Source: an uncultured Methanosarcinales archaeon
GTDB lineage: Archaea > Nanobdellota > Nanobdellia > Woesearchaeales > JAGWAF01
Direction: 5' to 3'
DNA length: 64,000 nt
Assembly (NCBI GenBank): GCA_964597775.1
Contig: CAZQZJ010000001.1
Location: forward strand, 6,033-70,032
Under the pieces are notes generated by a model. That model ran no database searches and had not been told where the DNA came from. It saw only the letters and a program-made list of their open reading frames with translations. The translations under genes were made by a program, and so were the position numbers. Below are positions 12,958 to 38,292 of the stretch, piece by piece; the first letter of the stretch is position 1; each line of letters starts with the position of its first letter.

Positions 12958-12997
12958 TGGTAGGGTTATGGTATCTTATTTAAAAAAGAGTAAGATG

Positions 12998-19217: not shown

Positions 19218-20282
19218 CTAAGATTCCATGCATGTGCATGTTTCAATCTCTGCTGATTTGCTTAGGTTAGTTCCACATCTATTGGTATCAGTGCATGTAC
19301 GTGTTCGTTCTCTGCTAATAGGGCAAATAAGTGGTTCAAATCCTGTGCAAGTCCAGGATTCAGTGCATGGGATAGTGCAATTTTGTTGTGTTGCTGGTTT
19401 AGTTAGATTGGTTCCACAAGGTGTGTTGTCTGTGCAGTTTTTTGTTTGAAACCCTAAGTTACATGCACCAAATTCTGCGCATGTCCATGACTCATTGCAT
19501 ACGCATTGTTGGAATAACCCTGGTCGATTGTTTGTTGTGTTGCAAATGTTCATATCTGTGCAGTTTCTTGTTTGGCTGTTGATAGATGTGCAAATTCCAA
19601 ATGATTCACATTTCCATAGTTCAGCACATGGTGGAGTGCAAATCTCTTCAATAGCAGGTCTGCTGGCATTTGTTCTGCAATCATTAAGATCAATGCAATG
19701 TTTGTTCTGTATGCCATTAATGCATGTTCCAAGATTTGTGCAACTCCAGGATGGTGTACATGCTGTTTTTGCAAATGCTGTTATGAACATGTCACAGATT
19801 TGGATTTCAACATTGATACTTCCCCCACCAGGAAGGGGAATAGGTTGGCTAGCTGAATCGCGTTCTCCAGGACATGATTCTGGTGCGTCAATACTTCCAA
19901 AACTTCCTTGCGTAATACTTTCTACTTGTGGATTTCCTGTAATTTGGAGATAATATCCTTTTTTGATAGGAACAAGCGTATCCTTAAAGATGCGCTGAAA
20001 ATTACTGCGGGTAAATGCGCACGAGTCAAGGCCTCCACAATTTAAAAGTTGATCACTTGCACAATCTTGGAGAAGTGCGCCAAATGTTTTTTTTTGGCAA
20101 GCTGTGGTTTTAAGTAGGGTGCTTAGAAATGTTGTGGCAAGGCGTTTTTGCTCAAATCCTGCTTTGATGTCTTCTACTGGTTTGTTAATAATAGATAGTG
20201 CAAAGAGTACGCCAATGCTAACCAGGATGACGATAATAGTAAGTCCCATAATCTCCATTTGAGCTTGTTTTCTGTTATGCAT
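19218..20282 (-). CDS. pilin-like protein with class III signal peptide and 4-5 tandem Cys-rich CxESWxC...CTDxNxCGT modules
   Basis: The N-terminus MHNRKQAQMEIMGLTIIVILVSIGVLFALSI is followed by the repeats CTPSWSCTNLGTC..., CAELWKCESFGIC..., CNESWTCAEFGAC..., CTESWTCTGFEPLIC... The C-terminal module is nearly identical to a module inside the neighbouring giant protein. Confidence 0.6.
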   Translation of the reverse strand: MHNRKQAQMEIMGLTIIVILVSIGVLFALSIINKPVEDIKAGFEQKRLATTFLSTLLKTTACQKKTFGALLQDCASDQLLNCGGLDSCAFTRSNFQRIFKDTLVPIKKGYYLQITGNPQVESITQGSFGSIDAPESCPGERDSASQPIPLPGGGSINVEIQICDMFITAFAKTACTPSWSCTNLGTCINGIQNKHCIDLNDCRTNASRPAIEEICTPPCAELWKCESFGICTSINSQTRNCTDMNICNTTNNRPGLFQQCVCNESWTCAEFGACNLGFQTKNCTDNTPCGTNLTKPATQQNCTIPCTESWTCTGFEPLICPISRERTRTCTDTNRCGTNLSKSAEIETCTCMES

Positions 20283-20775
20283 AAATATTCACCTTAAGAA
20301 TAGCGAATTTGTATTTGTCAGTAAGTGGGTCGCGGATGTTGATAGGGATAAATGAGGGCATAATCGAATTTGTTTGAAGTGGTTTTTTTTCATATAAGAT
20401 GGTTATCTTTTTTTCTGGGAAGATTTCTTCTATGCTGACATTAGAATATCCAAAGGTTGAGAAATAATCATCTTTGATAGTCGCATTTTTTCGAAGAAGG
20501 TATGAAAAATTGGCAACTTTATATTCATCAAAGCATGTCTCTACTTGAACTGTTATTTTAGTGCAATCAAGTTCTGGGATAGTTGCAATTTTGTCAGAGA
20601 GTGTAATAGCTCTCTTTTCAAGAACGCGTTCATATTCTTTGGCTGCTTGTGTTTTGGCAACAAGAAAGTAAAATGATAGGCCAAATGCAATAAGGAAAAA
20701 GAAGATAAGAAGTACTGCTATTGTTTCAAACATTTGAATTTGTGCGTGTTTCATCGTTAATAGATTTCTGGGCAT
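20275..20775 (-). CDS. pilin-like protein (class III signal peptide)
   Basis: The N-terminus MPRNLLTMKHAQIQMFETIAVLLIFFFLIAFGLSFYF is a KH(A)Q motif followed by a hydrophobic helix. Confidence 0.5.
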   Translation of the reverse strand: MPRNLLTMKHAQIQMFETIAVLLIFFFLIAFGLSFYFLVAKTQAAKEYERVLEKRAITLSDKIATIPELDCTKITVQVETCFDEYKVANFSYLLRKNATIKDDYFSTFGYSNVSIEEIFPEKKITILYEKKPLQTNSIMPSFIPINIRDPLTDKYKFAILKVNIYA

Positions 20776-21875
20776 GAGCCACCAAAATATTCTTTAGATA
20801 GATTATTAATTTTGTTATAGAAATCAAGAATTTGTGTGCTATCTCTTCTTCGTGCTGCATGTGATAAACTGTTAAGGTTAATTACTACTTGATCATAACC
20901 TAGTTGACAGGTTGGGGTGTTAAGAGCTGCTGCTCTGATTGCATAAAGAGATGCAATGTTTGAAAGTTTATTATAGGCAGTATTCATATTACAGCTATAC
21001 TGGTCAGGGTGTTCGCTAAAAAAAGCTGCGATGAGATCACCTTCATTAATATAAGATGCTGTGATAGGTCCTAAATATTGTCCTCTTTTATTTTTATAAT
21101 AAAATGTTAGCTTTTTTGTTTCAGTATTAACCTCAAGGCAGGATATATCTTTTTCTTCGTTACGAAATTGGTTACATTGTCCACTATCAAAATAGATAAA
21201 CCGCGTTCTACCGCTTGATTGTCTTATGTTTTTTGCTAAGATTGCTGCAGTGCCAGTAGAAATATTAATGTTGATATTCCCTGGAAGAATAGAAAGAATT
21301 CTATCTATTTCTGGCGTCATGTGTGGTACTACAATAACATATTTAATGCGATTATTGGTGATTGCTAAAAAGTTGGTAACACGAAACGGTACTTTCCAAT
21401 CAAAGGCGTAAAGGATCATATTTGGTCCGCGAATAATTGGTGGTGAGAAGATTATAGTCTCTCCAAATGGTTTGTTTACTGCTCCAATGGATAATGTACA
21501 ACTGCAATCTTGTGTGCATGCAAACAGAACGTCGATTTCTGGAAATTCGATAAGTTGAGATGTTCCTTTTGAGGTTGATGCTTTGCTTGATATGGCAGTA
21601 AGATCTGAGATAATGCTTTCTGCTATAGATAGTTCATTTGCTGCCTTTTGTTTTTGGATAAATGCAAAAAAAGTGACTAGAATAATAGCTCCTGCAATAA
21701 GTGTAAAAAGCCAATTAAGTGGTACTTCTAGTTGGCCGCGAGATATTGGTTTGTATTTTTTTCTCTGGGTTCTGCAGGTTTGATGTTGATTAATTCCAAT
21801 TATTTTCATAGTGCTTGTTGTATAATGTTTTAATATGAATAAAATCATTAAGTATGGATTTATAAGAGATTCCAT
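20757..21875 (-). CDS. hypothetical membrane protein within the pilus/adhesin cluster
   Basis: 372 aa with a TM helix (LNWLFTLIAGAIILVTFFAFI). It overlaps both neighbours by 16-19 nt, indicating an operon. Confidence 0.45.
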   Translation of the reverse strand: MESLINPYLMILFILKHYTTSTMKIIGINQHQTCRTQRKKYKPISRGQLEVPLNWLFTLIAGAIILVTFFAFIQKQKAANELSIAESIISDLTAISSKASTSKGTSQLIEFPEIDVLFACTQDCSCTLSIGAVNKPFGETIIFSPPIIRGPNMILYAFDWKVPFRVTNFLAITNNRIKYVIVVPHMTPEIDRILSILPGNININISTGTAAILAKNIRQSSGRTRFIYFDSGQCNQFRNEEKDISCLEVNTETKKLTFYYKNKRGQYLGPITASYINEGDLIAAFFSEHPDQYSCNMNTAYNKLSNIASLYAIRAAALNTPTCQLGYDQVVINLNSLSHAARRRDSTQILDFYNKINNLSKEYFGGSCPEIY

Positions 21876-22375
21876 CTGCTAATCTTAGTACGATCTCCTA
21901 ATCCTTCAAGACGGAGTGATATAGTGGATGACTCAATTTTCTCAAAGCAAAGGAATTCAGGTGGGTCAATATCAATTGTTCCTATATTAATTGGTGTTTC
22001 AGAAAGTGGTTTTAAAAAGACATTTTGGTCTGCTCCGCTTGCTACTGCATCTGCCATGCGTGCGCTAATATTATAAAGTGGTTCAAGAGCTTTTTGGTTT
22101 CCTGTTGTTTGTGAGAGAAGGTCTTGTGTGTCGATAAAGCATATAGATGTGTATCCTGGACAGACTGACAAGTCTAGTTTTCGAACGCTTCCAAAGCTTG
22201 CACGAACTCGTTCAACTTGATTTTTAAGTGTGTTTTCCATATCAATAAGGCATACCTCTGATTTGACTGCTTGAAGTTTGCTAATTGCATTGTAGCCGTA
22301 AATAAGGATCATTGAGAATATGATTGCTCCAAGTACAAAGAGTAGTGCTTGTCCAATGACCTGGCCTTGTTTCAT
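21860..22375 (-). CDS. pilin-like protein (class III signal peptide)
   Basis: MKQGQVIGQALLFVLGAIIFSMILIYGY: KQGQ followed by a hydrophobic helix. Confidence 0.55.
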   Translation of the reverse strand: MKQGQVIGQALLFVLGAIIFSMILIYGYNAISKLQAVKSEVCLIDMENTLKNQVERVRASFGSVRKLDLSVCPGYTSICFIDTQDLLSQTTGNQKALEPLYNISARMADAVASGADQNVFLKPLSETPINIGTIDIDPPEFLCFEKIESSTISLRLEGLGDRTKISRWNLL

Positions 22376-29668: not shown

Positions 29669-32584
29669 TCAGATTCGTAATTTTGCTGTAAAGTCTCTCC
29701 ATATGTCTCTAAGATTGCCAAAATTGCTTGTGCTAAAGGCAATAAAACTCATGCTGGAATTGGTAAAGAGGCAGTCACGATTCAAATCTGAGTTGATCCT
29801 TGCATTAATAAGATCACAACTATTTTTGCCTGCTCGATCAGAAACATTGAGATTAATGTATCTTGCTCCAATATAATCTAAAGGAATTAGATTAAACCTG
29901 CTTTTTTCAAGAAATGCAAATAAATCCTTAGAAGCAACACGACTAATATAGATTGTGTCAAAGAGTGATGTTGTTGAGAAAAATCCTTGCTGATCAGCAA
30001 GCTGTGTTCGATTGCTAAACTCCACAAGATTAGAAAATCTGGTTTTAATAAAAGAGTCTCTTTGCGTGGTAAGTTCTAGGATATCGCTAGAGCTAAGTGT
30101 GCCTGTTGGTGTAAAAATAATGCTGTTAAGGTTTTGATTGTAATAAATACCGCTGCTGCATGAAGCAAAGCGATTTTCTGTAAAAGCTGTGTTGCAAAAG
30201 CGTGAGGATTTGCCAAGTGCTGTAAGAAAACTCTGTGTTGTGTCATTAATAGGTATATTAATGCTTACTCCAAATGCAACACCTTTGTTGTATCGTAGTA
30301 CGCAGAATTGATTTACGCAAGGAATAGATATATCATTTATTTTACAGTTTTCGCCTAGATACCTCTGAACAGGTCCTGCATTAGGAAAGGTTTCATATCC
30401 AACAAAGTTGAGAACCTCACCAAAATTATCGCAAAAAATACTGTAATTACGTCGCGATTGGGATTCTGCAAAATCAAGTAAGTATTCAGCAAGAATCTTT
30501 GTTCTGCTTGTCCAGTTTCCACGGTCACAGTAGTATTGTTTAATTGACTGTCCATTTGCAATGCAAGCAGGTTCTTGTTTAGGAATAGTTGTAAATGCAG
30601 TTTCTGGTTTATCATTATTGCTCAGGTTTCCAGCAGGATTGTATAAGCATTGTGTTTCTTCTGGACAAAATCCTGCTGCACTATTATCTGGAGTAGTTTT
30701 GATATCTTGTTTAATCCATTCACCGCCAATGCAGCGAAATCCGCCAGTAGTGCTTGGTTTAGTATCATTACGCTGATCATCAACGCATTTAATTCCTGAA
30801 AAACATTGATTCTGTGAACAGCATTCTGTAGTGATAGCAGTTGCATTAAGGTTAGGTGTTAATTGATCTCGAACTATAGAAGGAACGCTTCGTGGAAAGA
30901 GTTTATTTTGTTTTTGAACAAATGACCATGATCCGTTAAAGGAGCAGTAAAGATTGACATTTGCTGTGCGAGTGACATTATATGCAAGAGTGCAGCGGTT
31001 TGTATCGTTAATAAGTTGTTTATGTGTAAAATTATCTTTAATTAGTAAAAGTCCTGGGTTGGTTTCATTAAGTTGGCAGCCAAAGAACTGGCCAAGGAGT
31101 GCAAGCACGCTGCTATTTGTTTTATTGATTATAAATCCATTGCGTGCAAATGTGGAATTATAGCATGCGCCACTCTGGTCTTCAATATAATTTGGAGGAT
31201 CTGGATCATTATAGAATTCATTTATATCTTCTGCTTCTGAACAGCATTTAGTTCCTGTCCAACGTAGTCCAGCAGCAATGCATGTTAAAGAATCTTTGGT
31301 GTCAAGATCCTTTGTCCATTCAGCATCTTTGCTACAGTATAATGTTGGAGAGTCTCGATCTTGGCTAATACTTATTTTTAGAAAAGACGCAGCTCCAATA
31401 GCTCCCGAAGGGCCTGTATTGATAAAAAGTTCAATTGCATTAATCTGAACAAATCCAGTTCTGCGTTCTACTTTGTTATCAAGTGTGCAGCTTAAAACAG
31501 AGTTTTGTGTATCATAATCAAGGATAAGTGTATGTACTTCATTAGGTTTAAAGCTGCTGATGTCAAAACTTGTTTGGATAATGGTTGTTCCTGCAGTATT
31601 AAAACATCCAAGAGTAGTTCCTCTTTTTTCAATAGAGAGATATTTTTCTGGAGTTTCTTTTGCAAAGAAAAAAAAGCGATTAAGATCCTCAGATCCAGCC
31701 CATGTGTTTGTAAAGGTGAGTACAATATGTCCTTTGCTATTGTTATAATTGCCTAATGTACTGGTTTGTATAGTGTCTGTTGGACCAAGTGTTGCTGCAA
31801 AAAGCTCGCCTACAACATGATTTTCTCCAAGCATAGCGCTTCTTCCATTCTTTGTATTATAAGATCGATCATCTCCATTGCATTCGAGAATGGTTTGATA
31901 GGTGTCATTATTCTGAGGAGTGTCTTCTGCACAAAGGTACGAATGTGAAGCATAACGAAAACCTGGTTTACTGATATTGATAAGATTAAAGGTACCATAA
32001 TTGGATTTTATATTGCTTAGTAATCCGCAAGCAAGAAAGTCTGTGCCAGTAGAAACCACTTGAGCCTTGCCACAGTTGATATTAACAATGTCTGCTTTAT
32101 GTTTATTAAGTTCTACAAATTCCCAGTTTTCAGGTGTTGTAGAAGGGTTTGCACACAGCTCGTTACTAAATCTTTTTCCACAATTAGCTTCTGGGTGAGC
32201 ACCACAACAGGTAGCTGCGGGATTTGAAAAATTGACAGTCTTATTGCCAAAACAAATAGGAAGATCGATAAAGTTGTTTCCTCTGCAATACTGTTCAGTA
32301 TCCCAATTAACCTTGTGCGCATCTGAGATAATCTCTTGTGTACTATCAGATGATCCGCCTACCTTAAAATTAAGAAGATATTGACCTTCTTGTGTACACA
32401 CCTTATTTGCTATATCAATCGGAATCCGGCACTGTGCATTGCCAAGACACTCATCTGTTTGAATAGCTACTGAATTGTTATCAGGAAAAATAAGGCTTAA
32501 AATTCCGGTTTGAGCATTGACTAAGGAAGTGAATGCTAAAACAATGGTAATAATAAAAACAGATGTTATAATAATGGTACGCAT
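29669..32584 (-). CDS. large (971 aa) secreted Cys-rich surface protein
   Basis: The signal peptide is MRTIIITSVFIITIVLAFTSLVNA. The sequence has many Cys residues and is N/T/S-rich, consistent with a glycosylated surface protein. Confidence 0.6.
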   Translation of the reverse strand: MRTIIITSVFIITIVLAFTSLVNAQTGILSLIFPDNNSVAIQTDECLGNAQCRIPIDIANKVCTQEGQYLLNFKVGGSSDSTQEIISDAHKVNWDTEQYCRGNNFIDLPICFGNKTVNFSNPAATCCGAHPEANCGKRFSNELCANPSTTPENWEFVELNKHKADIVNINCGKAQVVSTGTDFLACGLLSNIKSNYGTFNLINISKPGFRYASHSYLCAEDTPQNNDTYQTILECNGDDRSYNTKNGRSAMLGENHVVGELFAATLGPTDTIQTSTLGNYNNSKGHIVLTFTNTWAGSEDLNRFFFFAKETPEKYLSIEKRGTTLGCFNTAGTTIIQTSFDISSFKPNEVHTLILDYDTQNSVLSCTLDNKVERRTGFVQINAIELFINTGPSGAIGAASFLKISISQDRDSPTLYCSKDAEWTKDLDTKDSLTCIAAGLRWTGTKCCSEAEDINEFYNDPDPPNYIEDQSGACYNSTFARNGFIINKTNSSVLALLGQFFGCQLNETNPGLLLIKDNFTHKQLINDTNRCTLAYNVTRTANVNLYCSFNGSWSFVQKQNKLFPRSVPSIVRDQLTPNLNATAITTECCSQNQCFSGIKCVDDQRNDTKPSTTGGFRCIGGEWIKQDIKTTPDNSAAGFCPEETQCLYNPAGNLSNNDKPETAFTTIPKQEPACIANGQSIKQYYCDRGNWTSRTKILAEYLLDFAESQSRRNYSIFCDNFGEVLNFVGYETFPNAGPVQRYLGENCKINDISIPCVNQFCVLRYNKGVAFGVSINIPINDTTQSFLTALGKSSRFCNTAFTENRFASCSSGIYYNQNLNSIIFTPTGTLSSSDILELTTQRDSFIKTRFSNLVEFSNRTQLADQQGFFSTTSLFDTIYISRVASKDLFAFLEKSRFNLIPLDYIGARYINLNVSDRAGKNSCDLINARINSDLNRDCLFTNSSMSFIAFSTSNFGNLRDIWRDFTAKLRI

Positions 32585-32671: not shown

Positions 32672-33004
32672 ATGGATGGGATTAATGTATTTGAAGATGG
32701 TGCATGCAAAAGATTAGATATTAAGACTTCAATCTATCCACTTAAAGTGGTAGTAACAACAGCATACACATTTCTTGATCGTGCATTTATCCTTCTTGAT
32801 GGTGATCCCAAATCAACAATCATTGTGCATCTCCAAGCCAAAAAGGAAGGAGATGCTGCTAATCTGCTTGTTAAAGAATTTCAAAACGCCCTACTTGGAT
32901 ATGCACATTTTCAATTAGTATCTGATGAAAATAGGAAGATACGAGAAATGATTGTGTATCGTGCATTGATGACTATGGAGCATGAGGTTACTCATGCAAA
33001 ATAA
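32672..33004 (+). CDS. small hypothetical protein upstream of the radical-SAM maturase (possible accessory or RRE-like partner)
   Basis: 110 aa. It overlaps the next small ORF, which in turn overlaps the rSAM start (ATGA), indicating a tight operon. Confidence 0.35.
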   Translation: MDGINVFEDGACKRLDIKTSIYPLKVVVTTAYTFLDRAFILLDGDPKSTIIVHLQAKKEGDAANLLVKEFQNALLGYAHFQLVSDENRKIREMIVYRALMTMEHEVTHAK

Positions 33005-33200
33005 GATCGTTGTGCATCTGAATCATATGTTCTATGATCCTTTTATTATTGAGGAGGTCATAAAGGTGTGTGATGTAACAATATCACAAGAAGGAGGGTA
33101 TTGTGTGGTAAGTTGTGATGATACGCCTCAAGCGCGTATCATGCTTAAGAATATACCTAATAAGGTATTATTTGCAATCAAACAAGGTAGTATTCAATGA
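32982..33200 (+). CDS. small hypothetical protein (72 aa) in the rSAM operon
   Basis: Translationally coupled between 32672..33004 and 33197..34639. Confidence 0.3.
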   Translation: MRLLMQNKIVVHLNHMFYDPFIIEEVIKVCDVTISQEGGYCVVSCDDTPQARIMLKNIPNKVLFAIKQGSIQ

Positions 33201-34639
33201 ATTCGCTTCCTGTTATTGGAATGAATGTGTATCGCGCTCGTCAGATAAAAGATAAGGTGCTTATCACAACTGATTCAGGTGCATGGTTATTTCTTGAGCA
33301 GAATGAATTTGAACTGCTTAAATCAAAAAATCTTACTCCTGAAATCTTAGATAAATTAACAACTGCCCGTATCTTGCTTACAACACAGAATATGTCTCAA
33401 GAAGTCGATGCGTATCAAAGAAAAAAAGCATTTTTGTATCAAGGAACTTCTCTTCATATTGTTGTTGTGACACTGCGTTGTAATCAGAGCTGTGTGTATT
33501 GTCATAGTGCATCGCGGCCAATGTTAGAATCAAAATTTGATATGACCAAAGAAACAGCTACAAAGGTTGTTGATTTTATTTTTCAGAGTCCTGCTCCTTC
33601 TGTAGATATTGAATTTCAAGGAGGTGAGCCACTAGCAAATTTTGAGGTTATTAAATATATTACTGAATATGCACAAGAGCTGTCAAAAAAAGGAGGTAAG
33701 CGTGTTCAGTTTACTATGACTTCAAATCTGATTTTTTTAGATGATGAAAAATTAGATTATCTTATTTGTAATAATATTTCTGTATGTACCTCGCTTGATG
33801 GTCCTAGGATTGTTCATGAGAAAAATAGGGGATTTTATGCACCTCTTATGCGACAGATTGAGCGTGTAAATAATGAGTATAGAAAAAGAGGTATGAATCA
33901 CCATATCAATGCTTTATGTACTATAACCAGGTTTGCTCTGGCTTATCCAAAAGAGATTATTGATGAGTATAAAAGGTTAGGGATGAGTGAGATTCATTTG
34001 CGTTTTCTCAATGAATTAGGAACTGCGCAAGAACAGTGGGAACATATTAAGTACAGTTCTGAGGAGTTTATTCTTTTTTGGAAGCAGGCCTTGGATTATA
34101 TTCTTGAGATCAATAAGCAAGGAACTGTATTTGTTGAAAGAGGAGCCAAGATAATGTTGCAAAAGATTTTAAGTGCTGATGATCCTAATTATGCTGAGAT
34201 GCGTTCTCCTTGTGGTGCTGCAACAGGTCAAATTGCTTATATGTATGACGGATCAGTGTATACCTGTGATGAAGGAAGAATGGTAAAAGAGGGTGTTTTC
34301 TTAATAGGTGATACAAGAAAGCATGCCTACAAAGAAGTGCTTACTTCAAGTCCTGTGTTAACATTAATGGGTGCGTCAAATAATGATAATTTTATTTGTG
34401 ATACTTGTGCATATAAACCTTGGTGTGGTATATGTCCTGTATTAAATTATGTAGAACAAGGTTCAATTATTGCCAGGATTTCTGAAACTTCAAGACATAA
34501 AATCTACCTTGCACAATTTGATTTTCTCTTTGAAAAATTGCTTAGCGATCCAGAAGCTACGCAGATATTTAAGCGTTGGGTTGAGCAAAGTGGATATAGA
34601 GTTACTCAACCAATTTTAGATCCGAAAGAAGTCTGTTAA
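33197..34639 (+). CDS. radical SAM enzyme with C-terminal SPASM/twitch Cys cluster (peptide-modifying maturase, anSME-like)
   Basis: It has the CNQSCVYC CxxxCxxC motif (LRCNQSCVYCHS), a GGEPL motif (IEFQGGEPLANF) and the C-terminal Cys cluster CDEG...CDTCAYKPWCGICP. Confidence 0.75.
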   Translation: MNSLPVIGMNVYRARQIKDKVLITTDSGAWLFLEQNEFELLKSKNLTPEILDKLTTARILLTTQNMSQEVDAYQRKKAFLYQGTSLHIVVVTLRCNQSCVYCHSASRPMLESKFDMTKETATKVVDFIFQSPAPSVDIEFQGGEPLANFEVIKYITEYAQELSKKGGKRVQFTMTSNLIFLDDEKLDYLICNNISVCTSLDGPRIVHEKNRGFYAPLMRQIERVNNEYRKRGMNHHINALCTITRFALAYPKEIIDEYKRLGMSEIHLRFLNELGTAQEQWEHIKYSSEEFILFWKQALDYILEINKQGTVFVERGAKIMLQKILSADDPNYAEMRSPCGAATGQIAYMYDGSVYTCDEGRMVKEGVFLIGDTRKHAYKEVLTSSPVLTLMGASNNDNFICDTCAYKPWCGICPVLNYVEQGSIIARISETSRHKIYLAQFDFLFEKLLSDPEATQIFKRWVEQSGYRVTQPILDPKEVC

Positions 34640-34699
34640 TTTTTGAAGGATTAATTTTTGAAGGATAGATTTTTATATGTGATCTGAGAATAAGATGCT

Positions 34700-35008
34700 A
34701 TGAAACAAGAGTTCTCATCTATGATAATATCATTTATGCTTGATGAAGATGGTAGGATTGATAAGCACAAGCTTATGCAGCTAGGTGCAGTGCTCTCAGC
34801 TGCTGGGTTAAGTTCTGGTATTGCTCATGCTCAATTGTCATGTCCATCTTGTGGTCCTGCTTGTGGAACCTCGTGTCATTCAAATTGTGCAGGTATTCGT
34901 TCAGAACAAGGAATGCATATTGGTCAACATGCGCATAATATTGAACAAGGTGGTTCTTGTCCTCCTCCTGGTGGAGGTGGTGGAGGAGGGGGTGGTGGGT
35001 ACTGTTAA
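34700..35008 (+). CDS. Cys-rich small ORF with poly-Gly tail; candidate precursor peptide (RiPP-like) for the adjacent rSAM/SPASM enzyme
   Basis: 102 aa. Leader-like MKQEFSSMIISFMLDEDGRIDKHKLMQLGAVLSAAGLSSGIAHAQ is followed by SCPSCGPACGTSCHSNCAG...SCPPPGGGGGGGGGGYC. It lies 60 nt downstream of the rSAM gene on the same strand. Confidence 0.45.
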   Translation: MKQEFSSMIISFMLDEDGRIDKHKLMQLGAVLSAAGLSSGIAHAQLSCPSCGPACGTSCHSNCAGIRSEQGMHIGQHAHNIEQGGSCPPPGGGGGGGGGGYC

Positions 35009-35038
35009 GGTTTTATAGAAGTGCTGTATTCTTAGAGT

Positions 35039-36046
35039 ATGATCCTTGGAATTGATATTGGTGGCAAGCATGTAAGAGGTGTTTTTCTTTTGAATGATCA
35101 AGTTGTTGGTCATACTGTTGTTGTGGCTCCAGCTTGTTTTGGTGAACGTGAATTAGTATATATACCAGCGCTTGAGCAAATACGAGATGCGCTTGGAATT
35201 GCTTTGGTAGATCATCTTCTTGTTCTCTCAACTGCTACGCTTAGTTCTGGATTTACTAAAGGTCTTACGCTAATATGTGAGGCTGTGGAAAATATCTTTG
35301 GTAATCCTTGTCTGCATTTTTTAGGTAATGATGGAAAATTCTATAATAAGACTGATGCGCTTAAGAATCCAGAAAAGGTATGCTGCACAGAATATTGGGG
35401 CACTATCACTTTTTGTAGTAGATTAACTCAAGAAAAAAAGTATGTATTAGTAGATATGGGAACACAGTCAACAACGATTCTTCCTGTGATTAATGGATCA
35501 ATTCCTACGAGTATAGAATGCACACCGCATGCTGCGTTTAGAGATGGTTTACTAATCATGATGGGTATGATTGGTACGCATGTTTATTCAGTGGTTTCTT
35601 CAGTGCAGTGGAATGGATATCACATGCCTATTAATGATTATACTCCTTTATTGATGTGTGATCTCTACTTTTATGAAGGTATCCTAAAAAGCGAGGAGTA
35701 TATATTATACCGTGAGTTGTCGATGGATCAGATCCATCATTTCCTGTGTAATCTGGTGTTAGTTGATTTCTTAACTGTTGATAAGGCAAAGACTCATGAG
35801 CTTGCTAAGCAGATTATTGAAAAGCAAGAGGGGATCATTTCTCAACATGTGGAAAATGTGTGTTCTGGATTTAGTTTGGATACTGTTATCGTAACAGGAC
35901 GTGGAGAAGGGGTTGTGCATGGTGCATTAAAAGGATGGAATAAAAAGGTGATATATATTGGTGATCTTCGTCCTGATGTTGCAAATAATGTTCCCCTTAT
36001 AGGAGCAGTGTATAGTTTACATGATCACCTAAATGAGTTAAGATAG
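35039..36046 (+). CDS. ASKHA-fold (actin/hexokinase-like) ATPase family protein, specific function unclear
   Basis: The N-terminal phosphate-1 motif MILGIDIGGKHVRGVFL resembles BadF/BadG/BcrA/BcrD and type-III PanK-like starts. 335 aa. Confidence 0.4.
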   Translation: MILGIDIGGKHVRGVFLLNDQVVGHTVVVAPACFGERELVYIPALEQIRDALGIALVDHLLVLSTATLSSGFTKGLTLICEAVENIFGNPCLHFLGNDGKFYNKTDALKNPEKVCCTEYWGTITFCSRLTQEKKYVLVDMGTQSTTILPVINGSIPTSIECTPHAAFRDGLLIMMGMIGTHVYSVVSSVQWNGYHMPINDYTPLLMCDLYFYEGILKSEEYILYRELSMDQIHHFLCNLVLVDFLTVDKAKTHELAKQIIEKQEGIISQHVENVCSGFSLDTVIVTGRGEGVVHGALKGWNKKVIYIGDLRPDVANNVPLIGAVYSLHDHLNELR

Positions 36047-37686
36047 GTGTGTTGGTAAAGATAGAGTGCCTCAATTGCAAATGCTGTTGTAATCTCTTTA
36101 GAGCCATAATAATAAAGACTGTAACCATACCACACGTGTTTATTCCAAGAGCCGTCAGGTTTTTGTTTTTTACGCAATAAAGAAGCTGCGCAATCGATTT
36201 GTGGTCCTGTATAATTTAGTCTGATAAGAGAACCAAGTGCTATTGCAGTATCCAAATCATTGCCAAACGAACAGTCTTTTTTTTGTGTTTGTAATATGTT
36301 GTTAATGATTTTCTCTTTTAAATTATCAAGACATGAAGATTCTATTTCTGATACACGTGATAATGAATCATAAAGAGATAGGGGTGTTAGATAATAGTGT
36401 GAGCATGATTTGTTAGTTATTGAAGAAGATAGGTAAGTGCAGAGATTGGGTGTTGATGTTTTAAGATAGTTGAAAACATTTGCATTTACAACACAGTCGA
36501 TATCATTCCCTTGATGATTGAACCAGGTGTAGAATCTTCCTTCATTATCTGTATAATTAAATAATATCTCGGTGATGTTGATAAGAGTATAATTGTATTT
36601 TTTAAGAATCCTTGCTGATGCAATAGTATCATCTGCATCAGGAGGAACTTTGTAATAGTGTTTGCTTTTTTTAGTCCAGTATTTCCATAATCCATCTTCT
36701 TCTTTATGTAAAACAAGATATGCTACACCTTTTTGAATTATGTCTGATTGAACAGGTAATTGGGATAATGATTCCAGTATAATGGCTGTTGGAAAGATAG
36801 CATAATCCTCAAAGCAAAAGATAAGGTAAGGGTCATAGCAAATATTATTTCTAAAGCTTCCATCCTCCTGCTGATGCGTTGCAAGGAATTGGATTCCTGC
36901 ATTAATCTGTTCATCGATGGTTCCCTGATTTGATATCAAAGGAGTTTCCTGATTTGATATCAAAGGAAGAGATAATGTAAGAAGAGCGCCAACCATCATC
37001 CACGGTGCAAATCGCATCTTTGTGTTGTGTGTGTTAAGGATGATAATATTGGTTAGATAACCTAAAAGAATAAGGAGAATAGTTAATAATAAGAATGATT
37101 GTGTAATAGGAATAAAGAGTAATGTATAGACAAATAATCCTGCATTGATGATAAGCATAATGGTTTTGTTTATATAAGAAATAGTGAATAATAAAAGAAT
37201 GATAAGCAATAAGGATAGATAAAATGGTATAGGGATATTGTAAGAAAGTCCGCTAATTCCAATAACTCCAAAGAAGATTGTTATTGCATTTTCTGGTAAT
37301 GGATAGTGTAGTTTTCTGTATTGGATATGGCACATGCTTTTGATAACAAGATAGGTGTATGCAGGAATAATCATGGCTGCAAGAAGTTGCAGAGGGGTTA
37401 CAAAAGAGGTATATTGTGTATGGATTAGAAGGATAGCATTATAGAGGGTAAAGAGTTTGGCATCTCCACCTCGCCAAAAGTTAAGTAGGTATAAAAAAAA
37501 TGAGCCGAGAAAACAGGCTGCTAGAATCAGCAACATGCTAAGATTAAGACGTCCATAAAAATAGAGCATACTAGCTGTTATAAGTGAAAAAAAAGAGATT
37601 GTATAATTTTTAATTTTGTGATAATAATGATCTTCATATGAAGTGATTATACCTAAGATTACTACTAATATTAGTGGAAGATTCAT
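36025..37686 (-). CDS. A24-family prepilin/preflagellin peptidase (PibD/FlaK-like) fused to a C-terminal prenyltransferase/squalene-cyclase-type alpha/alpha-toroid repeat domain
   Basis: The N-terminal polytopic domain has conserved Asp motifs (ITSYEDHYYHKIKN; FWRGGDAKLF, compare the GxGDxKL motif of A24 peptidases). After about 260 aa of TM helices come the repeats AGIQFLATHQQEDGSF, KGVAYLVLHKEEDGLWKYW, DADDTIASARIL and LLRKKQKPDGSWN, typical of SQHop_cyclase/prenyltransferase repeats. Confidence 0.6.
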   Translation of the reverse strand: MNLPLILVVILGIITSYEDHYYHKIKNYTISFFSLITASMLYFYGRLNLSMLLILAACFLGSFFLYLLNFWRGGDAKLFTLYNAILLIHTQYTSFVTPLQLLAAMIIPAYTYLVIKSMCHIQYRKLHYPLPENAITIFFGVIGISGLSYNIPIPFYLSLLLIILLLFTISYINKTIMLIINAGLFVYTLLFIPITQSFLLLTILLILLGYLTNIIILNTHNTKMRFAPWMMVGALLTLSLPLISNQETPLISNQGTIDEQINAGIQFLATHQQEDGSFRNNICYDPYLIFCFEDYAIFPTAIILESLSQLPVQSDIIQKGVAYLVLHKEEDGLWKYWTKKSKHYYKVPPDADDTIASARILKKYNYTLINITEILFNYTDNEGRFYTWFNHQGNDIDCVVNANVFNYLKTSTPNLCTYLSSSITNKSCSHYYLTPLSLYDSLSRVSEIESSCLDNLKEKIINNILQTQKKDCSFGNDLDTAIALGSLIRLNYTGPQIDCAASLLRKKQKPDGSWNKHVWYGYSLYYYGSKEITTAFAIEALYLYQHTYLNSFR

Positions 37687-38292
37687 CTATGTTTCCCTAG
37701 CAAATGATCCTGTAGTATGAAGCATTGTTTTTGCTGTGTCAGTAGCTACACCAATGGAAAGAAGAAACTTGTGAAGGTCATGTGGGCTGCGCATGTGAAT
37801 TGGAAAATGTGCAAAGCTTGCTAAAAGCATAGGTGTTTCATATTTTCTGCAGAGTTTGATGTTTTGCAGTATTCGTCCAAGAATAATGCTGCGTTGTGGT
37901 GGATCTGCCAAAAGTAAGGATTCGAAACTATATCCTATTACAATCTTTTTTTTGGTAAGAATGTTGCAGAGAACATGGTTAAGCCCAGATGCGCGATGGT
38001 GGATATAATCGCGTCGCTGTTTTATCTCAAGATCATAAAGAATATGAAAACCTCCTTGTTCAATATCAGATCGATCATCACCTGTGCTTTGGTGAATAAT
38101 AATAGGTGCTTGACGATTCGTGCTTGCCCATAAAAGAGTAAAATTCTTTTGGAATTTTGTCCTGAGCTGTTGCAGTTGCTGTGCTTCACTTGGGTTCTTA
38201 TAAAAAAAACAAAGTCCCCTCCAGCCTAGACACTGTGCCATGGCAACAAATTCGTGCTCATTGTGGTTTGGGAAAACAATATCGATATGCAT
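37687..38292 (-). CDS. rnp3: RNase P protein component 3 (Rpp30 family)
   Basis: 201 aa. The C-terminal signature ASFAHFPIHMRSPHDLHKFLLSIGVATDTAKTMLHTT matches the Rpp30 motif (SSAAERPLEIRGPYDV..LGL..SDAK in human Rpp30). The N-terminus MHIDIVFP...EFVAMAQCLGWRGLCFF matches fxDL..lv..A..LGYsvvAi. Confidence 0.6.
   Translation of the reverse strand: MHIDIVFPNHNEHEFVAMAQCLGWRGLCFFYKNPSEAQQLQQLRTKFQKNFTLLWASTNRQAPIIIHQSTGDDRSDIEQGGFHILYDLEIKQRRDYIHHRASGLNHVLCNILTKKKIVIGYSFESLLLADPPQRSIILGRILQNIKLCRKYETPMLLASFAHFPIHMRSPHDLHKFLLSIGVATDTAKTMLHTTGSFARET

What the first reader, a model, noticed from the sequence alone, without database searches (positions are those of the whole stretch)
36025..37686. 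Prepilin peptidase fused to a squalene-cyclase/prenyltransferase-type alpha/alpha-toroid domain
The N-terminal approximately 260 aa form a polytopic A24-like aspartic peptidase (D-containing motifs ITSYEDH and GGDAKLF). The C-terminal approximately 290 aa contain at least four QxxxDGSW-type repeats and a DADDTIA motif reminiscent of the SHC DxDDTA region. Such a fusion is not a standard architecture for PibD/FlaK/EppA. It could couple pilin processing to a lipid or glycan-binding or modifying function at the membrane surface. It lies next to the RNase P Rpp30 gene and 3.5 kb from the pilin/adhesin locus.
Basis: seen in the sequence. Interest (0 to 1): 0.65.

Follow-up and report, generated by a model that had tools for sequence, protein, structure and literature searches.

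The report
Peptidase–terpene-cyclase fusion beside Hxs locus
A tiny groundwater archaeon carries a so far unique gene that joins a membrane-embedded signal-peptide-cutting protease to an outward-facing terpene-cyclase-like barrel, and the gene belongs to a radical-SAM "His-Xaa-Ser" peptide-maturation locus rather than to a pilus operon, which points to a candidate for the unknown protease of such systems.

Summary
Window 36025-37686 (-) is one uninterrupted 553-aa ORF. Residues 1-246 are a divergent but genuine A24 aspartic membrane peptidase: Pfam misses it, but an HMM of 50 Pfam-positive relatives scores it at 64.7 bits. Residues ~257-553 are a single-β-domain class II terpene-cyclase barrel. 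Its best structural match is drimenol synthase (E 1e-14), and the acid motif D350-A-D352-D353-T354 and Tyr432 are intact. The fusion is a singleton: no second example turned up among about 15 billion proteins or in two contig collections.

The interpretation needs revision. This A24 clade (W-x-GGDAKLFTLY) lies in radical-SAM-rich loci in 7 of 8 contexts examined. Five of these, including the window, carry HxsD, HxsB and a small HxsA-like precursor with a shared leader. In a Pacearchaeota contig a stand-alone toroid homologue sits between a radical-SAM gene and two His-Xaa-Ser repeat genes. Elsewhere the toroid family pairs with UbiA prenyltransferases.

The most likely reading is that the protease domain removes the leader of the adjacent HxsA-like peptide, and possibly of nearby pilin-like proteins, at the cytoplasmic face. 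The toroid, predicted to lie outside the cell, would perform or mediate an isoprenoid-dependent step. This is a new variant of known kinds and is biochemically untested.

The parts
36025..37686 (-). Whole fusion gene, 553 aa plus stop codon
   Evidence: Single ORF. The identical protein occurs in NCBI and ENA assemblies. GC3 is uniform across the two halves, 0.282 vs 0.269.
36949..37686 (-). N-terminal A24-type aspartic membrane peptidase domain, residues 1-246, with 10 predicted helices
   Evidence: An HMM of 50 PF01478-positive relatives scores it at 64.7 bits, against 6.2 bits for the best shuffle. The AF2 model has 10 helices, and the core residues 1-120 have pLDDT of about 80-94.
37630..37632 (-). 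Codon of Asp19, the first catalytic Asp, in ITSYED...KIKN at the cytoplasmic end of helix 1
   Evidence: D19 and N27 are invariant in the 51-sequence alignment A3.
37462..37464 (-). Codon of Asp75, the second catalytic Asp, in W-R-G-G-D-A-K-L-F-T-L-Y (GxGD-type motif)
   Evidence: G74, D75, A76, K77, L78 and F79 are invariant in A3. The 12-mer is identical in P0151.
37003..37011 (-). F226-A227-P228 motif at the start of the last transmembrane helix (227-244), which carries the chain to the outside
   Evidence: The motif is nearly invariant in A3. The preceding loop NTHNTKMR is positively charged. Predicted cytoplasmic loops hold 8 K+R and predicted outer loops hold 1.
36919..36966 (-). Inter-domain linker with a 24-bp in-frame tandem duplication (22 of 24 identical) encoding PLISNQET / PLISNQGT
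   Evidence: Read directly from the sequence.
36025..36918 (-). C-terminal class II terpene-cyclase beta-domain (alpha/alpha barrel), residues 257-553, plus stop codon
   Evidence: pLDDT is above 90. Foldseek matches AsDMS 9m7d/9mhs at E 1.3e-14 with rmsd 2.5 A over 305 columns, then 8pak, 6ij1 and MstE. phmmer matches 9mhs_B at E 1.5e-5. PF13243 and PF28380 hits. There are 1291 homologues at E<=1e-3.
36625..36639 (-). D350-A-D352-D353-T354, the class II cyclase general-acid motif
   Evidence: It aligns with D331-L-D333-T-T of AsDMS, where D331 and D333 are essential (PMC12365925). Family conservation is 145/148, 142/148, 129/148 and 119/148 for D350, D352, D353 and T354.
36391..36393 (-). Codon of Tyr432, predicted hydrogen-bond partner of the catalytic Asp
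   Evidence: It aligns with AsDMS Y427 and is conserved in 130 of 148 family members.
32672..33004 (+). HxsD
   Evidence: TIGR03976 at 51.2 bits against a cutoff of 50. PF27806 hit. Orthologues occur in L007 and L009.
32982..33200 (+). 72-aa HxsD-like ORF
   Evidence: NF038315 at E 3e-4, below the cutoff. A 70-aa ORF occupies the same position in L007.
33197..34639 (+). HxsB radical SAM/SPASM maturase
   Evidence: TIGR03978 at 448.7 bits against a cutoff of 370, E 2.3e-134. Orthologues in L007 (E 2e-120) and L009 (E 3e-94) lie beside A24-clade genes.
34700..35008 (+). 102-aa HxsA-like precursor: a conserved leader (..FMLDEDGRIDK..LG), then a hydrophobic helix, then a Cys/His/Gly-rich tail ending in G10-YC. 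It is the putative substrate.
   Evidence: Weak HxsA3 hit over the leader, E 0.008. The leader motif is shared only with HxsA-like ORFs of L007, L009, L011, L013 and L018.
35039..36046 (+). 335-aa hydantoinase_A/MfnF/TIGR03123-like ORF, the last gene of the Hxs-like operon. Its 3' end overlaps the fusion gene's 3' end by 22 nt in convergent orientation.
   Evidence: PF01968 at 25.6 bits. TIGR03123 at E 8.7e-25, below the cutoff. Coordinates.
19218..22375 (-). Four ORFs with class III (pilin-type) signal-peptide-like N-termini, which are possible additional substrates
   Evidence: N-termini read directly: MKQG|QVIGQALLF, KHA|QIQMFETIAV, KQA|QMEIMGLTII and SRG|QLEVPLNWLF. They have no Pfam hits.

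Best explanation
This is one real gene for a two-module membrane protein that works with the adjacent His-Xaa-Ser (Hxs)-type radical-SAM peptide system.

[quoted passage not shown] Its two catalytic aspartates, D19 and D75, lie at the cytoplasmic ends of helices 1 and 4. It belongs to a distinct clade marked by W-x-GGDAKLFTLY and a terminal FAP helix. Members of this clade are almost always encoded inside radical-SAM maturation loci. Module 2 (residues ~257-553) is a single-beta-domain class II (protonation-type) terpene-cyclase barrel with an intact D-x-D-D-T acid motif and partner Tyr. The last helix of the protease carries it to the outer face of the membrane, where it replaces the signal anchor or lipobox that its stand-alone relatives use.

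Proposed mechanism, which is inferred: HxsB and HxsD act on the 102-aa HxsA-like precursor through its conserved leader. The protease module then cuts the leader off at the Gly/Ala that precedes the precursor's hydrophobic helix, at the cytoplasmic face, as prepilin peptidases do. It may also process the pilin-like proteins encoded 14 kb away. The Cys/His/Gly-rich tail of the processed peptide ends up outside the cell, next to the toroid. The toroid binds an isoprenoid chain in its aromatic-lined cavity and protonates it. Its substrate would be a membrane polyprenyl compound without a diphosphate head, or conceivably an isoprenoid linked to the peptide.

Shown here: the identities of both domains, the conserved catalytic residues, the clade-to-rSAM/Hxs association, the toroid-HxsA adjacency in a second DPANN genome, and the uniqueness of the fusion. 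Inferred: the substrate, the cleavage site, the topology and the chemistry of the toroid.
For: Gene and domains.

Clade context: P0193/L007 has HxsD, a 70-aa ORF, HxsB, a 330-aa gene and an HxsA3/4 gene, plus 8 further rSAM genes flanking the peptidase. P0178/L009, P0166/L011 and P0183/L013 have many rSAM genes, HxsD, an HxsB-like gene, an 88-91-aa precursor, and T2SS-E/F and MshEN genes. P0151/L004-6 and P0204/L012 lie in rSAM clusters. The window has HxsD and HxsB above NCBIfam cutoffs, and the operon ends inside the fusion gene.

Precursors: the leader motif (D/S)E(D/E)G-x-(I/V)-x-K followed by G/A and a hydrophobic helix occurs only in the HxsA-like ORFs among about 90 loci.

Toroid link: in Pacearchaeota L018 the order is rSAM, toroid, a 149-aa ORF, then two HxS-repeat proteins with the same leader.

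Toroid chemistry: D350/D352/Y432 align with the essential D331/D333/Y427 of AsDMS, and the cavity aromatics are retained (F298, Y336, W337, Y520, Y527). Relatives are fused to UbiA prenyltransferases, a P450 or PhyH, or sit next to UbiA in 19 of 76 genomes.

Outside location: the K+R tally is 8 inside and 1 outside, the helix count is even, and the closest stand-alone toroids have signal, lipobox or TM anchors.

Published background: in E. coli HXS, the HxsA effector undergoes a non-canonical N-terminal cleavage by an unidentified protease before acting outside the cytoplasm (PMC13128918).
Against: The fusion is a singleton, so it is weak Rosetta-stone evidence. None of the other A24-clade loci examined contains a toroid. 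75 of 76 genomic toroid loci lack A24 and Hxs genes.

The window precursor matches HxsA3 only weakly (E 0.008) and has no H-x-S repeats. No HxsC or second rSAM is present in the window.

The precursors also carry plausible signal-peptidase-I sites after the hydrophobic segment (for example AHA|Q), so A24 cleavage is not required to explain their processing.

The probable archaeal orthologue P0201, which also has Rpp30 adjacent, has no Hxs genes within 6-10 kb.

The query itself gets no Pfam A24 hit. No structural match to FlaK was obtained.

The diphosphate-binding arginines of AsDMS are not conserved (G393, D395, H430, Y522), no UbiA gene is in the window, and DPANN archaea generally lack isoprenoid lipid synthesis (general knowledge). 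The toroid's substrate is therefore unknown.
Confidence: 0.5

Rival explanations
1. This is the first reader's view: a housekeeping class III signal peptidase (PibD/FlaK/EppA-like) that matures the organism's type IV pilins and adhesins. The external toroid would add a lipid- or glycan-binding function at the pilus base, and the Hxs operon is merely a neighbour.
For: This is the only A24-like ORF in the 64-kb window. Four pilin-like ORFs with class III-type N-termini, plus giant secreted proteins, lie at 9952-32584. The Rpp30-adjacent probable orthologue P0201 (L008) sits among giant surface proteins without any rSAM genes. JGI names clade members CpaA or FlaK. Three clade loci also carry T2SS-E/F genes.
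Against: Seven of the 8 clade contexts are rSAM-rich, and 5 carry HxsD and HxsB. No type IV filament ATPase or platform gene was found in the window. The gene is physically interlocked with the Hxs-like operon, with a 22-nt convergent overlap. The toroid has independent HxsA adjacency in L018.
Confidence: 0.25
2. This is a fortuitous, recent gene fusion without functional coupling. A signal-anchored terpene-cyclase-like gene lost its own anchor and became attached to the last helix of an upstream peptidase gene. Each module keeps its separate job, and the peptidase serves only as the membrane anchor.
For: The fusion is a singleton among about 15 billion proteins and in the genome and metagenome scans. 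The two families are not neighbours in 75 of 76 toroid loci or in the other A24-clade loci. The near-perfect 24-bp duplication in the linker suggests recent remodelling. Toroid relatives are promiscuously fused to UbiA, P450, GDSL lipase and Ig/PKD arrays.
Against: The Pacearchaeota locus L018 independently places a toroid between an rSAM gene and two HxsA genes. All catalytic residues of both modules are retained. The fusion junction removes exactly the toroid's anchor and leaves no remnant.
Confidence: 0.3
3. The toroid is a non-catalytic binding module. It would hold host-derived isoprenoid lipids, or the exported His/Cys-rich peptide, at the cell surface and would not be an active cyclase.
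For: The domain lies outside the cell, where diphosphate substrates are absent, and the AsDMS diphosphate-binding arginines are not conserved. More distant structural neighbours include binding or thioester domains (complement TED) and glycan hydrolases. DPANN archaea depend on host lipids (general knowledge).
Against: D350, D352, D353, T354 and Y432 are conserved in 80-98% of 148 family members and are all present here. That pattern is what selection for catalysis would produce. The fusions and adjacency with UbiA prenyltransferases, P450 and PhyH indicate a biosynthetic role.
Confidence: 0.2
4. This is an assembly or frameshift artefact that joins two separate genes.
For: The source is a low-coverage metagenome contig (cov_6 in the ENA record name). 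The fusion is a singleton.
Against: The reading frame is uninterrupted. The protein is identical in two deposited assemblies. There is no second start codon or signal anchor between the FAP helix and the first toroid helix, so this is not simple read-through of two intact genes. GC and GC3 are uniform across the junction. The complete A24 domain, including its terminal motif, is followed directly by a complete barrel.
Confidence: 0.04

Closest known systems
Archaeal and bacterial A24 class III signal peptidases (FlaK, PibD, EppA; CpaA/TadV)
   Same: It is a polytopic membrane protein with two aspartates, one after helix 1 and one in a GxGD-type motif, with spacing (D19/D75) like FlaK D18/D79 and PibD D23/D80 (those residue numbers are from memory). 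50 of 50 clade relatives hit PF01478. The predicted substrates have a charged leader, then a Gly, then a hydrophobic helix.
   Different: The query itself is below Pfam detection. There are ten helices rather than about six. The signature is clade-specific (W-x-GGDAKLFTLY and a terminal FAP helix). The genomic home is rSAM/Hxs loci rather than pilus or archaellum operons. It carries a C-terminal 300-aa extracytoplasmic enzyme-like domain that no other member has.
Monodomain / beta-domain class II terpene cyclases: the TC-beta domain of drimenol synthase AsDMS and fungal AstC (PF28380), MstE, 8pak/8paj, 6ij1
   Same: It has the same alpha/alpha barrel (E 1e-14, rmsd 2.5 A). The D-x-D-(D/T)-T acid motif and its partner Tyr align with the essential D331/D333/Y427 of AsDMS, and the cavity aromatics are retained. 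QW-like repeats are present.
   Different: There is no HAD phosphatase partner. The diphosphate-binding arginines are replaced (G393, D395, H430, Y522). The domain is predicted to lie outside the cell, tethered to a protease. The substrate is unknown, and identity is only 21-22%.
HXS anti-phage system (HxsA-D) of E. coli and Klebsiella (PMC13128918)
   Same: HxsD and HxsB are above NCBIfam cutoffs, in the order D then B. There is a small secreted or anchored HxsA-like protein that needs N-terminal processing. The published system has a non-canonical HxsA cleavage by an unidentified protease.
   Different: There is no HxsC. The precursor is HxsA3/4-like in its leader only, and its tail is Cys/Gly-rich rather than made of H-x-S repeats. 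The host is an archaeon, whereas 99.7% of reported systems are in Pseudomonadota. The locus has extra genes: an HxsD-like 72-aa ORF, an ASKHA/MfnF-like gene and the A24-toroid fusion. A defence role was not tested, and PADLOC-DB (2023) gave no hit.
UbiA prenyltransferase / TC-beta pairs and fusions (uncharacterised: P0037, P0039, P0043, P0080, P0117; loci L015, L017, L020)
   Same: These have the same toroid family joined to a polytopic membrane enzyme, including in DPANN and CPR genomes.
   Different: Here the membrane partner is a protease, not a prenyltransferase, and the window contains no UbiA gene.
Squalene-hopene cyclase / protein prenyltransferase beta subunit
   Same: QW-type repeats, a DxDD motif and the alpha/alpha toroid superfamily.
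   Different: It has a single barrel of about 300 aa instead of the beta-gamma didomain of 630 aa. The SHC matches are far weaker (E 2e-7, TM 0.25-0.28) and FTase-beta weaker still (E 7e-4). TIGR01507 scores 22.7 bits against a cutoff of 431.

Membership tests
Peptidase A24 (type IV prepilin / class III signal peptidase) | Two catalytic Asp: the first after TM1, the second in a GxGD-type motif | tested here: met
   D19 and G74-D75 are invariant in the 51-sequence clade alignment A3. The WRGGDAKLFTLY block is identical in P0151.
Peptidase A24 (type IV prepilin / class III signal peptidase) | Match to Pfam PF01478 at the gathering threshold | tested here: not met
Peptidase A24 (type IV prepilin / class III signal peptidase) | FlaK-like membrane fold | tested here: inconclusive
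Peptidase A24 (type IV prepilin / class III signal peptidase) | Catalytic Asp residues at the cytoplasmic face of the membrane | tested here: inconclusive
   Inferred from the helix map and the positive-inside count, 8 K+R inside and 1 outside. No topology predictor or experiment was available.
Peptidase A24 (type IV prepilin / class III signal peptidase) | Cleaves class III signal peptides after Gly/Ala, before the hydrophobic helix | not testable with these tools
   Candidate substrates exist: the HxsA-like 102-aa ORF and the pilin-like ORFs.
Peptidase A24 (type IV prepilin / class III signal peptidase) | Encoded with type IV filament ATPase, platform and pilins | tested here: inconclusive
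   Pilin-like ORFs lie 14 kb away. The window has no T2SS-E/F homologue. Three bacterial clade loci do carry T2SS-E/F genes.
Class II terpene cyclase, beta-domain type (PF28380 AstC-like_C / PF13243) | (alpha/alpha)6 barrel fold | tested here: met
   pLDDT is above 90 for residues 255-553. Foldseek matches AsDMS at E 1.3e-14 with rmsd 2.5 A over 305 columns, and also MstE, 8pak and 6ij1.
Class II terpene cyclase, beta-domain type (PF28380 AstC-like_C / PF13243) | D-x-D-D/T-T general-acid motif | tested here: met
   D350-A-D352-D353-T354 aligns with the DLDTT of AsDMS. Conservation in the family is 80-98%.
Class II terpene cyclase, beta-domain type (PF28380 AstC-like_C / PF13243) | Tyr that activates the catalytic Asp (AsDMS Y427) | tested here: met
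   Y432 aligns with it and is conserved in 130 of 148 members. This rests on a sequence alignment at 21% identity. The geometry in the model could not be inspected.
Class II terpene cyclase, beta-domain type (PF28380 AstC-like_C / PF13243) | Pfam model at the gathering threshold | tested here: inconclusive
   PF13243 scores 24.0 bits for the whole protein, below the 26.1 threshold, and 26.8 for the C-half scanned alone. PF28380 is a precomputed hit, and that model was not in the local library.
Class II terpene cyclase, beta-domain type (PF28380 AstC-like_C / PF13243) | Isoprenoid diphosphate head-group binding residues (AsDMS R378, R380, R425, R513) | tested here: not met
   The aligned residues are G393, D395, H430 and Y522, and these positions are variable in the family. 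This argues for a different head group, not against cyclase chemistry.
Class II terpene cyclase, beta-domain type (PF28380 AstC-like_C / PF13243) | Cyclase activity on a polyprenyl substrate | not testable with these tools
   There is only contextual support: fusions and adjacency with UbiA, P450 and PhyH.
HXS (His-Xaa-Ser) radical-SAM system | HxsB radical SAM maturase | tested here: met
   TIGR03978 at 448.7 bits against a cutoff of 370.
HXS (His-Xaa-Ser) radical-SAM system | HxsD | tested here: met
   TIGR03976 at 51.2 bits against a cutoff of 50.
HXS (His-Xaa-Ser) radical-SAM system | HxsC, the second radical SAM enzyme | tested here: not met
   Searches with HxsB and three L007 rSAM queries found no second rSAM ORF in the 64-kb window.
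HXS (His-Xaa-Ser) radical-SAM system | HxsA effector with His-Xaa-Ser repeats | tested here: inconclusive
   The 102-aa ORF shares the HxsA3-type leader (E 0.008, below the cutoff) but has zero H-x-S motifs. The L007 and L018 counterparts are HxS-rich.
Squalene-hopene cyclase | Beta-gamma didomain of about 630 aa matching TIGR01507 | tested here: not met
   22.7 bits against a cutoff of 431. It has a single barrel, and the TM-score to SHC is 0.25-0.28.

The most novel reading that the evidence does not exclude
HxsA3/4-type precursors would be pilin-like (class III signal) proteins. Radical-SAM enzymes would modify them, a dedicated A24 peptidase clade would strip their leader, and they would be displayed or assembled at the cell surface, in some bacteria by co-encoded type IV filament ATPase and platform genes. 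In this DPANN archaeon the peptidase is physically fused to an extracellular class II terpene-cyclase-type enzyme that acts on the emerging peptide or on an isoprenoid attached to it. That would be a peptide-isoprenoid hybrid maturation machine, possibly an archaeal envelope-level antiviral 'gatekeeper' analogous to bacterial HXS.
Probability: 0.15. Interest if true: 0.85.

Novelty: new variant of a known kind. Interest (0 to 1): 0.62.

Why it matters
There are three reasons.

First, the 2026 characterisation of the HXS anti-phage system left open which protease performs the non-canonical N-terminal cleavage of HxsA (PMC13128918). A dedicated A24 aspartic peptidase clade that co-localises with HxsD, HxsB and HxsA-like genes in bacteria and in a DPANN archaeon is a concrete, testable candidate for at least the HxsA3/4-type variants. 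It also suggests these precursors are pilin-like.

Second, the fusion places a class II terpene-cyclase-type barrel with an intact active site on the outside of an archaeal cell. The organism belongs to a lineage thought to depend on host lipids. Together with the UbiA-toroid pairs in other DPANN and CPR genomes, this points to unexplored isoprenoid chemistry at the surface of ultrasmall symbionts.

Third, it extends Hxs-type systems to archaea, with a non-HxS, Cys/Gly-rich cargo.

The caveat is that the fusion itself is a single observation from a metagenome, and nothing here is biochemically tested.

Tried and rejected
- Pfam and NCBIfam on the N-half found no A24 hit even at E<=10. This was resolved only through the weak hit P0151 and a profile built from it.
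- The PDB sequence search with the N-half and with the clade profile did not retrieve FlaK.
- The first structure job used a mixed alignment (A2) in which MAFFT forced the N-family rows onto the C-domain. Its N-half is therefore unreliable, and only the C-domain of that model was used. The N-domain was re-predicted from A3.
- The search for a second copy of the fusion found none. This covered the word-indexed search, the exhaustive HMMER search, the genome and metagenome contig scans and the cluster look-up.
- A 41-sequence toroid alignment was too diverse for the locus scan, so a 10-sequence version was used.
- An NJ tree meant to assign the query's toroid to an Hxs-linked or a UbiA-linked subclade was unresolved. 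The query is about equidistant, at roughly 35% identity.
- PADLOC-DB (2023) gave no defence-system hit apart from generic viperin-like rSAM similarity for HxsB.
- Literature searches for prepilin peptidase plus terpene cyclase, and for radical SAM plus prepilin peptidase plus RiPP, returned nothing. The archaeal TFF preprint mentions no such fusion.
- A prenyltransferase reading and a full SHC reading were considered and rejected. A LanC-like or Zn-dependent peptide cyclase reading was also considered. No such family appeared among the sequence or fold matches.
- The neighbours of the nearest genomic toroid (L014) are housekeeping genes and are uninformative.

Full report
**1. The observation.** Window 36025-37686 (minus strand) is a single ATG-to-stop ORF of 553 aa. 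The identical protein is on record as MEK6874808.1 from a Nanoarchaeota MAG (72-kb contig) and on an ENA Hainich groundwater contig of 43.8 kb. The window has about 37% GC and archaeal markers, including Rpp30 directly upstream at 37687-38292 (PF01876, E 1.6e-11). Five QW-like repeats can be read in the C-half.

**2. The N-terminal half.** Pfam and NCBIfam give no A24 hit for the protein or for residues 1-246 scanned alone, even at E<=10. PDB sequences give nothing either.
- A word-indexed search with the N-half returned one weak hit, P0151 (299 aa). It shares the first-Asp helix, an identical WRGGDAKLFTLY block and a terminal FAP helix. P0151 covers the whole Peptidase_A24 model at 23.3 bits, just under the gathering score.
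- A two-sequence profile then collected 67 proteins. Most are 283-300 aa with precomputed PF01478, and JGI names them CpaA or FlaK.
- In a 51-sequence alignment (A3), D19, N27 and G74-D75-A76-K77-L78-F79 are invariant, and F226-A227-P228 and G233 are nearly so.
- Fifty of the 50 relatives hit PF01478 at E<=0.01.
- An HMM built without the query scores it at 64.7 bits over residues 4-239 (E 1.2e-12 for a 1.8-billion-sequence space). The best of 1000 shuffles scores 6.2 bits, and no other ORF in the window matches.

The N-half is therefore a complete, divergent A24 aspartic peptidase. An AF2 model built from A3 has ten helices with a confident core. Fold-level confirmation against FlaK could not be obtained.

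**3. Topology (inferred).** D19 lies at the end of helix 1 and is followed by HKIK. D75 lies at the start of helix 4 and is preceded by R72. With ten helices, the predicted cytoplasmic loops hold 8 Lys+Arg and the predicted outer loops hold 1. Members of about 500 aa carry a K/E-rich soluble insert just before the last helix, which fits an in-to-out last helix. The C-terminal domain is therefore predicted to lie outside the cell. That is also where its stand-alone relatives must be, since the closest ones start with lipoboxes, signal peptides or signal anchors.

**4. The C-terminal half.** An exhaustive HMMER search found 1291 homologues at E<=1e-3. All of the top 150 match residues ~245-550 only. 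Most are 320-360 aa, and a few are large multidomain proteins.
- phmmer against PDB sequences hits drimenol synthase AsDMS (9mhs_B, E 1.5e-5), with DADDT aligned to DLDTT.
- The AF2 model has pLDDT above 90 for residues 255-553.
- Foldseek ranks the AsDMS TC-beta domain first (E 1.3e-14, rmsd 2.5 A over 305 columns). Next come the monodomain class II cyclases 8pak, 6ij1 and MstE, then SsDMS. Squalene-hopene cyclase (2e-7) and farnesyltransferase-beta (7e-4) are far weaker.
- In AsDMS, residues D331, D333 and Y427 are essential (PMC12365925). Through the alignment they correspond to D350, D352 and Y432. These are conserved in 145, 142 and 130 of 148 family members.
- The cavity aromatics are retained (F298, Y336, W337, Y520, Y527). 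The four diphosphate-binding arginines are not (G393, D395, H430, Y522).
- Multidomain relatives are fused to UbiA prenyltransferases (five cases), a P450, PhyH, a GDSL lipase or Ig/PKD arrays.
- In 76 genomic loci of the family, 19 have a UbiA-like gene within about 7 kb. The UbiA gene is directly adjacent in the DPANN/CPR loci L015, L017 and L020.

The domain is thus a member of a widespread, probably catalytic, isoprenoid-linked class II cyclase beta-domain family. It is not a prenyltransferase or a full SHC.

**5. Is the fusion real, and is it conserved?**
- None of the A24-clade proteins carries a toroid.
- None of the top 150 toroid homologues carries the peptidase.
- Scans of the genome and metagenome contig collections found no relative of the full-length protein. 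Its 90% cluster has one member.
- The junction is clean. The FAP helix (227-244) is followed by a 12-residue linker and then the first barrel helix, with no remnant of a second signal anchor.
- The linker contains a 24-bp in-frame tandem duplication, 22 of 24 identical, at 36919-36966.
- GC3 is the same in both halves.

I consider an artefact unlikely. The fusion is real but lineage-specific, and probably young.

**6. What the surroundings say.** Genomic contexts of the closest stand-alone A24-clade proteins are not pilus operons.
- P0193 (L007) lies in a cluster of ten radical-SAM genes. The cluster also has HxsD, a 70-aa ORF, HxsB (E 2e-120 against the window's enzyme), a 330-aa gene and a 95-aa HxsA3/4 protein (NCBIfam E 3e-10).
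- P0178 (L009/L010), P0166 (L011) and P0183 (L013) lie among many rSAM genes, with HxsD, an HxsB-like enzyme, an 88-91-aa ORF, and T2SS-F, MshEN and T2SS-E genes.
- P0151 (L004-6) and P0204 (L012) lie in rSAM clusters.
- Only P0201 (L008) has no rSAM genes. It sits among giant proteins next to an Rpp30 homologue (E 1e-18), as in the window, and may be the unfused archaeal orthologue.

In the window, the genes immediately downstream and convergent are:
- HxsD (TIGR03976, 51.2 bits against a cutoff of 50);
- an HxsD-like 72-aa ORF;
- HxsB (TIGR03978, 448.7 bits against a cutoff of 370);
- a 102-aa ORF with a weak HxsA3 leader match;
- a 335-aa ASKHA/MfnF-like ORF whose 3' end overlaps the fusion gene by 22 nt.

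**7. The precursors.** The small ORFs of the window, L007, L009, L011, L013 and L018 share a common layout. It runs: charged N-terminus, (D/S)E(D/E)G-x-(I/V)-x-K, a Gly/Ala, an approximately 18-residue G/A-rich hydrophobic helix, and then a His-, Thr- or Cys-rich tail. A regular expression for the leader motif finds these ORFs and nothing else in about 90 loci plus the window. A charged leader followed by Gly and a hydrophobic helix is what A24 peptidases cut. However, signal-peptidase-I-like sites also follow the helix (for example AHA|Q), so the site of processing remains open.

**8. The toroid is also Hxs-linked, once.** In the Pacearchaeota contig L018, the gene order is a radical-SAM gene (PF04055, 53 bits, apparently split), a signal-anchored toroid (336 aa, 34% identical to the query's C-half), a 149-aa membrane protein, and two His-Xaa-Ser repeat proteins (30 and 39 HxS motifs) with the same leader. 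The other 75 toroid loci show no A24 or Hxs genes, and the other A24-clade loci show no toroid. The link between toroid and Hxs therefore rests on two independent DPANN observations: L018 and the fusion itself.

**9. Published background.** The HXS system of E. coli (HxsA-D) blocks phage DNA entry. HxsA is processed N-terminally by a non-canonical route that requires HxsB, HxsC and HxsD, and it acts outside the cytoplasm. No protease was identified, and 99.7% of reported systems are in Pseudomonadota (PMC13128918). I found no paper that links prepilin peptidases with terpene cyclases or with rSAM/RiPP systems.

**10. Most likely mechanism and its rivals.**
- I favour (about 0.5) a two-module maturation protein of an Hxs-like system. 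The cytoplasm-facing A24 site would remove the leader of the HxsA-like precursor, and perhaps of the pilin-like proteins at 19218-22375. The external class II cyclase-type barrel would act on a membrane isoprenoid or on the emerging peptide.
- Rival: a housekeeping pilin peptidase with an unrelated add-on (0.25).
- Rival: a functionally uncoupled, recent fusion in which the protease merely anchors the toroid (0.3, and partly compatible with either of the first two).
- Rival: a non-catalytic toroid (0.2).
- Rival: an artefact (0.04).
- The main weaknesses are the singleton status of the fusion, the weak HxsA assignment of the window precursor (no HxS repeats), the absence of HxsC, T4F machinery and UbiA from the window, and the lack of any biochemical data.

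**11. Verdict.** Both domains belong to known families, but three things appear to be new: the architecture, the rSAM/Hxs-associated A24 clade, and an extracellular terpene-cyclase-type domain tied to a peptide-maturation locus in an archaeon. I classify it as a new variant of known kinds and score its interest at about 0.6.

Noticed in passing
window 32672-36046 (+): This is a compact Hxs-like radical-SAM locus in a DPANN archaeon. It has HxsD, an HxsD-like 72-aa ORF, HxsB, a 102-aa precursor and an ASKHA/MfnF-like 335-aa gene, and no HxsC. The precursor tail is Cys/His/Gly-rich (SCPSCGPACGTSCHSNCAG...G10-YC) rather than made of His-Xaa-Ser repeats. Published HXS systems are 99.7% from Pseudomonadota.
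   Followed up: partly
L009 13827-20888, L011 15316-20873, L013 14545-20903: A conserved bacterial super-locus has the order T2SS-E, MshEN, T2SS-F, a coiled-coil protein, HxsD, an HxsB-like rSAM and an 88-91-aa HxsA-like ORF with a Thr/His-rich tail. These are followed by many rSAM, AMP-binding and ApbA genes and the A24-clade peptidase. This suggests a type IV filament-like apparatus dedicated to rSAM-modified mini-proteins.
   Followed up: partly
window 19218-22375 (-), with 9952-19207, 22375-28212 and 29669-32584 (-): Four ORFs have archaeal class III (pilin-type) signal-peptide-like N-termini. They are flanked by giant secreted or anchored proteins of 971-2069 aa, one of which has TSP3_bac repeats. 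None of the pilin-like ORFs has a Pfam hit.
   Followed up: partly
window 36919-36966 (-): A near-perfect 24-bp in-frame tandem duplication (CCTTTGATATCAAATCAGGAAACT / CCTTTGATATCAAATCAGGGAACC) sits exactly in the inter-domain linker and encodes PLISNQET / PLISNQGT.
   Followed up: yes
L018 446-1484 and 3039-4106: In the Pacearchaeota contig the radical-SAM/SPASM gene upstream of the toroid is split into two ORFs, either by a frameshift or as a pseudogene. Two tandem HxsA paralogues carry 30 and 39 H-x-S motifs (21% His). The contig ends right after them, so a peptidase gene could lie just beyond.
   Followed up: no
L015 10917-11621, L017 433-1254, L020 8281-9822; proteins P0037, P0039, P0043, P0080, P0117: UbiA-type prenyltransferase genes are directly adjacent to, overlapping with, or fused to the toroid family, including in DPANN and CPR genomes that are thought to lack lipid biosynthesis. 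P0039 also carries a PhyH dioxygenase, and P0069 carries a P450.
   Followed up: partly
proteins P0195, P0197, P0198, P0204, P0205, P0211, P0213 (about 500 aa): A sub-group of the A24 clade carries a K/E-rich, probably coiled-coil soluble insert of about 200 aa immediately before the last FAP helix. P0204 lies at the end of a run of eight rSAM genes (L012).
   Followed up: no
L008 6352-7734 and window 36025-38292: Adjacency of the A24-clade peptidase gene and the RNase P Rpp30 gene is shared by two distantly related archaeal contigs (39-41% identity), although the relative orientation differs.
   Followed up: partly
window 1036-2061 (-): An ORF has an N-acetylmuramoyl-L-alanine amidase domain (Amidase_3, 28.4 bits). 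This is a peptidoglycan-cleaving enzyme in an archaeal contig, which would fit an attack on bacterial hosts or neighbours.
   Followed up: no
window 36025-36046: The 3' ends of the fusion gene (-) and of the 335-aa ASKHA/MfnF-like gene (+) overlap by 22 nt in convergent orientation. The Rpp30 stop codon abuts the fusion gene's ATG with no spacer, which suggests co-transcription with Rpp30.
   Followed up: no
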